Source: a virus (taxonomy: Duplodnaviria; Heunggongvirae; Uroviricota; Caudoviricetes). Taken from it: a stretch of DNA of 6,650 nucleotides. Of the stretch, positions 1-471 are shown in pieces. The stretch lies in IMG/VR virus record IMGVR_UViG_3300029248_000131; one strand, written 5' to 3'. Numbering within the stretch: position 1 is the stretch's first letter; each line of letters starts with the position of its first letter. The position numbers were made by a program, and so were the translations under genes. The notes beneath the pieces are model-generated. The model saw nothing but the letters and a program-made list of their open reading frames with translations, was not told where the DNA came from and ran no database searches.

Positions 1-471
1 TATTGCAGTGATTACTTTCTTTGTAATTGATGTATAAATCAACGGAATAAACATTAAATAAAAAAACAGCTCATCAGACAAAGACCATGATACACCATTT
101 AATGAGAAGTAGTAATCCTCCTTTGGTATCCAACTTTGCATTAATAAAATATTTGTTAAGGTTTTTGAAAAATCAAAGTTCTTTAAGTGAATGGTTAGTA
201 AAATAAATGGCATGGCTAATAATAGATGCATTGGAACAATTCTTGCCAATCTTAAAAGAATAAACTGTCTTTTACTTGTTACTTCATTTTTTAGCTTGTC
301 TTCATATGAATATGAAAGAATGAAGCCAGATAAAATAAAGAAAAAGGAAACGCCAATAAATCCCTGGGAAAACATTTCTTTTACAAAAACACCAAAATAG
401 TCTGTATTTAAATGGCATAAATAAACCATTAATGCAGCTATAAATCTGAGTCCTGTTAAGTGGCGAAGCAT
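1..471 (-). CDS. Acyltransferase family 3 (OafA/Oac-like O-acetyltransferase) membrane protein, N-terminal 157 codons; 3' end lies beyond the left window edge
   Basis: Minus-strand translation from ATG (471-469) is stop-free to position 1: MLRHLTGLRFIAALMVYLCHLNTDYFGVFVKEMFSQGFIGVSFFFILSGFILSYSYEDKL...RLARIVPMHL...NGVSWSLSDELFFYL. The LxGLRxIAAL..H and GxxGVxxFFxLSGF motifs are typical of acyltransferase-3 proteins. AAGAGG Shine-Dalgarno (rev-comp of 478-483) 6 nt upstream; in-frame stop at 519-517 bounds the start. Absent from the ORF track because its stop is outside the window. Visibly AT-rich compared with the rest of the window. Confidence 0.7.
   Translation of the reverse strand, partial: MLRHLTGLRFIAALMVYLCHLNTDYFGVFVKEMFSQGFIGVSFFFILSGFILSYSYEDKLKNEVTSKRQFILLRLARIVPMHLLLAMPFILLTIHLKNFDFSKTLTNILLMQSWIPKEDYYFSLNGVSWSLSDELFFYLMFIPLIYTSITKKVITAI

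What the first reader, a model, noticed from the sequence alone, without database searches (positions are those of the whole stretch)
1..471. Strongly AT-rich acyltransferase-3 gene at the element edge: candidate surface-polysaccharide modification (lysogenic-conversion-type) gene
Acyltransferase-3 proteins include phage-borne O-antigen acetylases that sit next to att sites and change serotype and phage receptor properties. This gene is much more AT-rich than the int module and points away from the att site, consistent with horizontally acquired cargo. Only the N-terminal 157 codons are in the window, so the substrate cannot be inferred.
Basis: partly seen in the sequence, partly recalled or inferred. 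Interest (0 to 1): 0.45.

Follow-up and report, generated by a model that had tools for sequence, protein, structure and literature searches.

The report
Prophage acetyltransferase restricted to E. coli O128
The window begins with the first 157 codons of a prophage-carried membrane acyltransferase gene that, among complete E. coli genomes, occurs only in serogroup O128 strains, so it is a good candidate for the enzyme that adds variable acetyl groups to the O128 surface antigen.

Summary
Window 1-471 (minus strand) encodes 157 uninterrupted codons of an acyltransferase-3 (AT3) protein. Its GC is 29%, against 45% for the rest of the window. The full gene encodes 339 aa. It has an AT3 domain only, with no SGNH domain, about ten predicted membrane helices and all three AT3 motifs.

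The gene is not cargo of the integrase module in the window. A 46-nt copy of the thrW 3' end (2461-2506) separates two elements. The AT3 gene lies at the far end of a ~38.6 kb prophage to the left. The int/AlpA/AntA module to the right is a separate satellite that also occurs alone at thrW.

The gene is in 7 of 5426 complete E. coli genomes, at four chromosomal sites and on at least two phage backbones. It always sits between the tail-fibre gene and the int/att end, which is where phage Sf6 carries oac. All 7 carriers are among the 23 genomes with the O128 O-antigen cluster (P about 1e-17, or 2e-10 counting four independent sites).

A 2026 preprint reports that O128 strains differ in O-acetylation and serological reactivity, and names no gene.

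Verdict: a new member of a known kind (phage-borne O-antigen acetylase). It has a specific, testable substrate hypothesis. No biochemistry was done.

The parts
1..471 (-). The first 157 codons of a 339-aa stand-alone AT3 membrane acyltransferase. The gene is cut by the window edge. The fragment contains the R9-X10-H20, FFILSG (44-49) and R74-x-x-R77 motifs.
   Evidence: Translation. Pfam PF01757 E=1.5e-13. Identical to residues 1-157 of P0001. Motifs invariant or nearly so in 33 homologues.
472..545 (-). 5' region of the AT3 gene: Shine-Dalgarno AAGAGG at 483-478 and one sigma-70-like site (TAGACA, 17 nt, TAAAAT) at 542-514.
   Evidence: Sequence and promoter scan. The scan found 2 sites where shuffles give 4.1, so it is a consensus match only and is not evidence of function.
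613..932 (+). Frameshifted C-terminal remnant of an S24/LexA-family gene (annotated at window 661-872) and the right border of the conserved cassette at about 923-932. This remnant accompanies the AT3 gene in all seven complete genomes.
   Evidence: RefSeq annotation in six carrier genomes; the seventh, CP52E, is covered by the feature list. Identity among carriers drops at window 895-932. Pfam found nothing in the two ORFs.
1252..2088 (-). Two small ORFs (57 aa at 1252-1425, 190 aa at 1516-2088) between the cassette and the att copy. They are present in the thrW-integrated prophages only. Function unknown.
   Evidence: ORF list. PHROG 4350, unknown function, E=3e-14 for the 190-aa ORF. No hit in Pfam, NCBIfam or PADLOC.
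2461..2506 (+). 46-nt copy of the 3' end of tRNA-Thr thrW. It is the right att junction of the AT3-bearing prophage and the left junction of the next element.
   Evidence: Exact match to the last 46 nt of thrW from KSC1031. No complete tRNA in the window. In KSC1031 this copy is followed directly by the yagP/paoD chromosome.
2673..6650 (+). Not part of the AT3-bearing prophage. This is a separate P4-like satellite island inserted in tandem at thrW: integrase 2673-3887, 251-aa ORF, AlpA 4878-5075, AntA-domain protein 5153-5953.
   Evidence: Pfam. The same element follows intact thrW directly in L024/L025, with no AT3 gene nearby.

Best explanation
The gene encodes a stand-alone AT3 inner-membrane O-acyltransferase, most likely an O-acetyltransferase, carried as a lysogenic-conversion gene by temperate phages of E. 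coli O128. Proposed mechanism, by analogy with Sf6 Oac and Salmonella OafA/OafB: the ten-helix protein binds cytoplasmic acetyl-CoA in a cavity lined by R9/H20 and R74/R77. It presents the acetyl group at the periplasmic face and transfers it to a sugar hydroxyl of the O128 repeat unit, after the unit is flipped and before it is ligated to lipid A-core. This would change the O128 epitope and hinder adsorption of phages that use the co-inherited tail-fibre tip. Shown here: family membership, intact motifs, prophage location in the slot where Sf6 carries oac, transfer together with the tail-fibre tip, and restriction to O128 hosts. Inferred: the donor, the acceptor, the position acetylated, and the effects on phage and serology.
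For: 1. AT3 identity. Pfam PF01757 scores 106.9 bits over residues 5-320 of 339, with no other domain. PHROG 3333 'O-acetyltransferase' gives E=6e-51 and PHROG 6705 'O-antigen acetylase' gives E=6e-26.
2. Catalytic motifs. R9-X10-H20, FFILSG and R74xxR77 are present. R9, H20, F44, S48, G49 and R74 are invariant and R77 is at least 90% conserved in 33 homologues of 32-83% identity. These motifs are essential in Oac, OafA and OafB (PMC7448272).
3. Predicted structure. The AlphaFold2 model has pLDDT 93.3 and pTM 0.92, with about ten long helices. This fits the 10-TMH AT3 fold described in PMC9833829.
4. Position. In all seven complete genomes the gene is convergent with a tail-fibre gene plus a 59-aa ORF, and lies next to the int/att end of a prophage (CP52E from the feature lists). 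In TW10590 and EH08-18-36 the order is tail fibre, AT3 (minus strand), intS (minus strand), argW. Sf6 has the same order and orientation: tailspike, oac, int.
5. Mobility. There are four sites (thrW, argW, bioA-ybhB, pphA side) and at least two tail/baseplate backbones. The gene is at least 99.9% identical throughout.
6. Host restriction. All 7 carriers fall within the 23 of 5426 genomes that have the O128 wzx-wzy cluster. The hypergeometric P is 9e-18, or 2.5e-10 for four independent events. Published serotypes agree: O128:H12 ST515, O128ac:H12 ST10, O128ab:H7.
7. Matching phenotype. O128 strains differ in the number of O-acetyl groups per repeat unit, and this tracks serological reactivity. 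No gene is named (bioRxiv 10.64898/2026.03.20.713141).
8. Related case. A Citrobacter portucalensis homologue of 83% identity sits in the same tail-fibre / 61-aa ORF / AT3 module.
Against: There is no biochemical or genetic test. The link to O128 could come from the host range of the phages, through the linked tail-fibre tip, and say nothing about the enzyme's acceptor. AT3 proteins also modify ECA, periplasmic glucans, peptidoglycan and capsules (PMC9558356). The O128 cluster has its own CatB-related O-acetyltransferase next to wzx, which could account for some or all O128 acetylation. Similarity to characterised enzymes is low: 28% to Sf6 Oac over 155 aa, E=1e-4, and 35.5% to the annotated, untested acetyltransferase of phage TL-2011b. 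Several host prophages look degraded, with IS insertions, frameshifted tape-measure or tail-fibre annotations and integrase remnants. Expression is therefore unproven, and the promoter match is no better than chance. Seven genomes is a small sample, and some share a lineage.
Confidence: 0.65

Rival explanations
1. The enzyme is active but acylates another envelope glycan, such as enterobacterial common antigen, LPS core, colanic acid, osmoregulated periplasmic glucans or peptidoglycan. On this reading, it is found only in O128 strains because the phages that carry it can infect only O128 hosts.
For: AT3-only proteins are known for ECA (WecH) and periplasmic glucans (MdoC/OpgC) in E. coli (PMC9558356). 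The gene is inherited together with a tail-fibre tip, which could by itself restrict host range. No sequence feature identifies the acceptor, and NCBIfam has no specific family for the protein.
Against: Phage-borne AT3 genes in this exact slot, where characterised (Sf6 oac), modify the O antigen that the phage recognises. E. coli already has chromosomal enzymes for ECA and OPG modification, per the review. A closely related tail-fibre type also occurs in a strain labelled O111:H2 that lacks the gene, so fibre type alone does not fully predict the gene's distribution.
Confidence: 0.2
2. The gene is an unexpressed or inactive passenger in decaying prophages and has no current phenotype.
For: Many host prophages carry IS elements, frameshifts and integrase remnants, and the neighbouring S24 gene is a pseudogene. 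The promoter-like site is no better than chance.
Against: The ORF is intact and at least 99.9% identical in all seven complete genomes and in many draft contigs, while flanking phage genes decay. All catalytic motifs are intact. A good Shine-Dalgarno sequence precedes the ATG.
Confidence: 0.1
3. The gene is cargo of the integrase/AlpA/AntA element seen in the window. This is one way to read the first reader's phrase 'element edge'.
For: The gene is about 2.2 kb from that integrase, within the same window.
Against: The thrW att copy at 2461-2506 lies between them. The satellite occurs directly after intact thrW without the gene (L024/L025). The gene occurs without the satellite in KSC1031 and at argW, bio and pphA.
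Confidence: 0.03

Closest known systems
Oac (OacA), the O-antigen acetylase of Shigella phage Sf6
   Same: Both are stand-alone AT3 proteins of similar size (333 and 339 aa) and both carry the RXXR and FFxxSG motifs. Both are very AT-rich relative to the host. The position and orientation are the same: convergent with the tail receptor-binding gene and next to intS at argW.
   Different: Identity is only 28% over the N-terminal 155 residues, E=1e-4, so this is not an orthologue. The host antigen here is E. coli O128 (Fuc/Gal/GalNAc repeat, PMC10304059), not the S. flexneri rhamnose backbone. The carrier phages have contractile-tail baseplate genes, not a P22-like tailspike. No function has been shown.
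O-acetyltransferase of Escherichia phage TL-2011b (and, by literature, the PhiV10 enzyme that modifies O157)
   Same: It is the closest phage-record homologue: 35.5% identity over 87% of the protein. It is AT3 family and is encoded directly after a large putative tail gene. [quoted passage not shown]
   Different: It is a different subfamily, a larger protein (368 aa) and a different host serogroup (O103:H25). PhiV10 itself did not appear among the tblastn hits.
Salmonella OafA / OafB (GtrC family 2), AT3-SGNH O-antigen acetyltransferases
   Same: Same AT3 domain. The functionally essential TM1 R/K-X10-H motif and the RXXR motif are conserved. The proposed transmembrane acetyl-CoA relay is the same.
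   Different: There is no SGNH domain and no 11th helix. The transfer step must therefore be done by the AT3 domain itself or by an unidentified partner.
gtrABC serotype-conversion cassettes of SfV-type and KplE1/CPS-53-type prophages
   Same: Same genomic slot at the tail-fibre/int-att end of prophages, and the same integration sites, thrW and argW (own knowledge for SfV and CPS-53; the sites are shown). The logic is the same: the phage modifies the O antigen.
   Different: The chemistry differs (glucosylation by three proteins against acylation by one protein), and there is no sequence relationship.

Membership tests
Acyltransferase-3 (Pfam PF01757 / IPR002656) | Profile match above the curated threshold across the whole domain | tested here: met
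   The window fragment scores 51 bits against a cut-off of 31. The full protein scores 106.9 bits, residues 5-320 on profile positions 4-325 of 326.
Acyltransferase-3 (Pfam PF01757 / IPR002656) | R/K-X10-H motif in TM1, FFxxSG motif in TM2 and RXXR motif | tested here: met
   R9...H20, FFILSG 44-49 and R74-L-A-R77 are present. They are invariant or at least 90% conserved in 33 homologues. Motif definitions come from PMC7448272.
Acyltransferase-3 (Pfam PF01757 / IPR002656) | Ten-transmembrane-helix fold | tested here: met
   The AlphaFold2 model (pLDDT 93.3, pTM 0.92) has about ten long helices, and hydropathy peaks are consistent with this. This is a prediction only. No solved AT3 structure was available for comparison. 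The best viral predicted-structure match has TM-score 0.73 and E=5e-7.
Acyltransferase-3 (Pfam PF01757 / IPR002656) | Acyl transfer from acyl-CoA to a carbohydrate hydroxyl | not testable with these tools
   This needs biochemistry or genetics.
AT3-SGNH fused acetyltransferases (OafA/OafB/OatA type) | C-terminal periplasmic SGNH domain and an 11th helix | tested here: not met
   The protein ends at residue 339, and Pfam finds only PF01757.
Phage lysogenic-conversion O-antigen acetylases (Sf6 Oac type) | Encoded by a temperate phage, between the receptor-binding tail gene and the int/att region | tested here: met
   This holds in seven complete genomes and in further contigs. The Sf6 layout is shown for comparison.
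Phage lysogenic-conversion O-antigen acetylases (Sf6 Oac type) | Association with one host O-antigen type | tested here: met
   All 7 carriers are among the 23 O128 genomes out of 5426.
Phage lysogenic-conversion O-antigen acetylases (Sf6 Oac type) | Close sequence relationship to Oac/OacB/OacC/OacD | tested here: not met
   Identity to Sf6 Oac is 28% over 155 aa, E=1e-4, and Sf6 was not recovered by tblastn at 1e-5. OacB, OacC and OacD were not compared directly.
Phage lysogenic-conversion O-antigen acetylases (Sf6 Oac type) | Demonstrated O-antigen acetylation, serotype change or superinfection exclusion | not testable with these tools
   There is only indirect support: O128 strains vary in O-acetylation and serology.

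The most novel reading that the evidence does not exclude
This single gene is the genetic determinant of the O-acetylation polymorphism within E. coli serogroup O128, and possibly of the O128 sub-factor differences seen in serology and MALDI glycotyping. It spreads as a compact receptor-plus-receptor-modifier cassette of about 2.5 kb: tail-fibre tip, 59-aa ORF and AT3 gene. The cassette recombines into unrelated prophage backbones at four or more att sites. A GDSL esterase occupies the same slot in another O128 prophage, which would suggest that phages contest the acetylation state of O128.
Probability: 0.4. Interest if true: 0.55.

Novelty: new member of a known kind. Interest (0 to 1): 0.4.

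Why it matters
O128 is a classical EPEC/ETEC/STEC serogroup. Its O antigen is used for typing. O-acetylation changes what antibodies and phages recognise. If this prophage gene controls O128 acetylation, three things would follow. It would explain why O128 strains differ in serological reactivity and in repeat-unit mass, which wzx/wzy-based in-silico serotyping cannot see. It would give a simple PCR or genomic marker for the acetylated variant. It would also add an E. coli example to the Shigella and Salmonella cases of phage-driven serotype conversion by an AT3-only enzyme, a class whose transfer step is still not understood. The kind of system is already well known, so the advance is incremental.

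Tried and rejected
- A tRNA gene in the window: ARAGORN and Rfam found none. The tRNA-like stretch is only the last 46 nt of thrW.
- A solved structure for comparison: there was no sequence hit in the PDB and no meaningful Foldseek hit (best E=0.26, TM-score 0.1-0.2).
- A specific family name: NCBIfam gave nothing, and PADLOC gave nothing for the AT3 protein or the neighbouring small ORFs.
- Orthology to Sf6 Oac: rejected at 28% identity.
- Diverged alleles in other E. coli serogroups: a sensitive blastn search found only the same seven genomes.
- The exact source of the window among complete genomes: none covers more than 59% of it. The best match is a gut-metagenome contig, L028, at 99.8%.
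- The S24 remnant: Pfam found nothing in its two ORFs, so I relied on RefSeq's pseudogene annotation.
- The primary paper on O128 type-strain structures (Ali et al. 2008, PMID 18237721) is not held. I make no claim about what it reports on O-acetyl groups.
- Dam/OxyR-type phase-variation control: I read the promoter region by eye and saw no GATC before about position 683. I did not pursue this further.

Full report
**Observation**

The minus strand of window 1-471 is an open frame of 157 codons. It starts at ATG 471-469, and an AAGAGG ribosome-binding site lies at 483-478 (read). It matches Pfam Acyl_transf_3 (PF01757) at E=1.5e-13 over the first 143 of 326 profile positions, so only the N-terminal part is present. 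GC is 29.1% for 1-471 and 45.4% for the rest of the window.

**The full gene**

Megablast places window 1-2508 at 99.96-100% identity in E. coli chromosomes. In strain KSC1031 the gene is 1020 bp and encodes 339 aa (WP_000943925.1), annotated only as 'acyltransferase family protein'. The window's 157 residues are identical to that protein.

- The whole protein is covered by PF01757 (residues 5-320, 106.9 bits). It has no second domain, so it is AT3-only, with no fused SGNH domain.
- It carries the three motifs shown by mutagenesis to matter in Oac, OafA and OafB (PMC7448272): R9-X10-H20, FFILSG (44-49) and R74-x-x-R77.
- These residues are invariant or at least 90% conserved in an alignment of 33 homologues of 32-83% identity.
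- An AlphaFold2 model built on that alignment is confident (pLDDT 93.3, pTM 0.92) and has about ten long helices. This fits the ten-helix AT3 fold proposed in PMC9833829.
- No solved structure matches by sequence or by fold. One viral predicted structure matches at TM-score 0.73.

**Which element owns the gene**

The window has no complete tRNA. Positions 2461-2506 are an exact copy of the last 46 nt of tRNA-Thr thrW.

- In KSC1031, intact thrW is followed by an integrase and then a complete-looking prophage: early genes, lysis genes, terminase, HK97-type head, contractile tail and baseplate. Next come a tail-fibre gene, a 59-aa ORF, the AT3 gene on the opposite strand, an S24-family pseudogene and two small ORFs. 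The thrW copy follows, about 38.6 kb from thrW, and then the normal chromosome (yagP/paoD).
- The AT3 gene is therefore cargo at the distal end of that prophage.
- In the window, the sequence after the thrW copy is a second element: a P4-type integrase, a 251-aa ORF, AlpA and an AntA-domain protein.
- That element occurs on its own directly after intact thrW in other assemblies, with no AT3 gene nearby (L024/L025).
- The window therefore spans the junction of two elements inserted in tandem. The AT3 gene does not belong to the int module in the window.
- A human-gut metagenome contig (L028) matches the window at 99.8% from the same first base, so the gene is probably truncated by a contig end.

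**Distribution and context**

The gene occurs in 7 of 5426 complete E. coli genomes, always at 99.9% identity or more. A sensitive search found no diverged alleles. It sits at four chromosomal sites:

- thrW: KSC1031, E41.
- argW, next to intS: TW10590, EH08-18-36.
- The bioA-ybhB region: LHM10-1, CP52E.
- Next to pphA: 300709.

The prophage backbones differ. Some have a Mu-like baseplate with YmfQ and a StfP-type fibre. Others have DUF2612 / Phage_Wedge1 baseplates. A sliding-window comparison shows a shared cassette of about 2.5 kb. It starts inside the tail-fibre gene (about L001:18425) and ends at window 925-932. It comprises the fibre tip, the 59-aa ORF, the AT3 gene and the S24 remnant. 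In LHM10-1 the fibre tip is diverged, but the rest is identical. Only the AT3 gene itself is AT-rich.

At argW the order is tail fibre (+), AT3 (-), intS (-), argW. Phage Sf6 has the same order and orientation: tailspike, oac, int. A Citrobacter portucalensis homologue of 83% identity lies in the same fibre / 61-aa ORF / AT3 module. The next homologues are 45% identical or less and come from unrelated bacteria and metagenomes. This fits import from a low-GC donor.

**The substrate lead**

Published serotypes for three carriers are all O128: CP52E is O128:H12 ST515 (PMC10060365), 300709 is O128ac:H12 ST10, and TW10590 is O128ab:H7 in phylogroup B1 (PMC6446980 Table S1).

I took the O128 wzy-to-wzx segment from 300709 and searched all complete genomes with it. 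Only 23 of 5426 carry it, and all seven AT3 carriers are among them. The chance of this is 9e-18 for seven genomes, or 2.5e-10 if only the four insertion sites count as independent events. Sixteen O128 genomes lack the gene, so it is a variable trait within the serogroup.

A 2026 preprint reports that O128 strains differ in O-acetylation. One strain has two O-acetyl groups on a hexose and another has one. These differences track serological reactivity, and the preprint names no gene. My literature searches found no paper that links O128 to a prophage acyltransferase. The E. coli O-antigen review mentions prophage gtr genes only.

**Interpretation**

The best-supported reading is a phage-borne, stand-alone AT3 O-acetyltransferase that modifies the O128 antigen. 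This is a lysogenic-conversion gene that travels with the tail-fibre tip of the phages that carry it.

- Shown: family membership, intact motifs, prophage location, mobility and O128 restriction.
- Inferred from the Sf6 Oac and OafA/OafB precedents (PMC9558356): the donor (acetyl-CoA), the acceptor (an O128 repeat-unit sugar), the periplasmic timing, and any effect on phage or serology.

The main caveat is that restriction to O128 could reflect phage host range and not the enzyme's acceptor. The O128 cluster also has its own CatB-type acetyltransferase. The protein is far from any characterised enzyme: 28% identity to Sf6 Oac and 35.5% to the untested TL-2011b acetyltransferase. Expression is not shown, and the one promoter-like site is no better than chance.

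**Verdict**

This is a new member of a known kind. Its value is a specific, cheaply testable hypothesis for O-acetyl variation within serogroup O128.

Noticed in passing
L023:6298-6894 (+), E. coli WS4437A-1, NZ_CP035822.1: An O128 strain that lacks the AT3 gene has a prophage with a related tail fibre. In the same slot, between the fibre/68-aa ORF and intS, it carries a 198-aa GDSL/SGNH esterase (Pfam PF13472, E=2e-15). This could be an O-acetyl esterase or an acetyl-transfer partner acting on the same antigen.
   Followed up: partly
window 2673-6650: A separate P4-like or PICI-like satellite island is inserted in tandem at thrW: integrase, 251-aa ORF, AlpA, AntA-domain protein. In L024 it continues to a D5_N/Pox_D5 primase, a ProQ-like protein and PerC. 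It also occurs alone after intact thrW. Other strains have a lambdoid prophage in this second position (L016), so thrW holds tandem arrays.
   Followed up: partly
window 1252-1425 and 1516-2088 (-): Two small ORFs of unknown function (57 and 190 aa; the 190-aa ORF matches PHROG 4350) lie between the AT3 cassette and the att copy. They are present only in the thrW-integrated prophages. There is no Pfam, NCBIfam or PADLOC match.
   Followed up: partly
window 613-932 (+): A frameshifted C-terminal remnant of an S24/LexA-family gene accompanies the AT3 gene in all seven complete genomes and marks the right end of the conserved cassette. Its origin is unknown.
   Followed up: partly
L010:49828-49901 and beyond (E. 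coli 300709, O128 gene cluster): The O128 O-antigen cluster has its own CatB-related (hexapeptide-type) O-acetyltransferase next to wzx. This is a second possible source of O-acetyl groups that any experiment must control for.
   Followed up: no
L001:18161-19440; L008:7161-8440; L003:10065-11440: The mosaic junction lies inside the tail-fibre gene. N-terminal parts are specific to each backbone, and the C-terminal tip (Gly_rich_2 domain) is shared from about L001:18425. RefSeq annotates several of these fibres as truncated pseudogenes, while another gene caller reports an intact 366-aa ORF. Related fibre tips (80-84% nucleotide identity) occur in five further complete-genome records that lack the AT3 gene: FDAARGOS_1059, O111:H2 strain 12A, two assemblies of AW1.7, and WS4437A-1. 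AW1.7 and WS4437A-1 are O128.
   Followed up: partly
window 5153-5953 (+): The AntA-domain protein of the satellite has a weak match to the PADLOC candidate defence family PDC-S22 (E=9e-10, C-terminal 80 residues).
   Followed up: no
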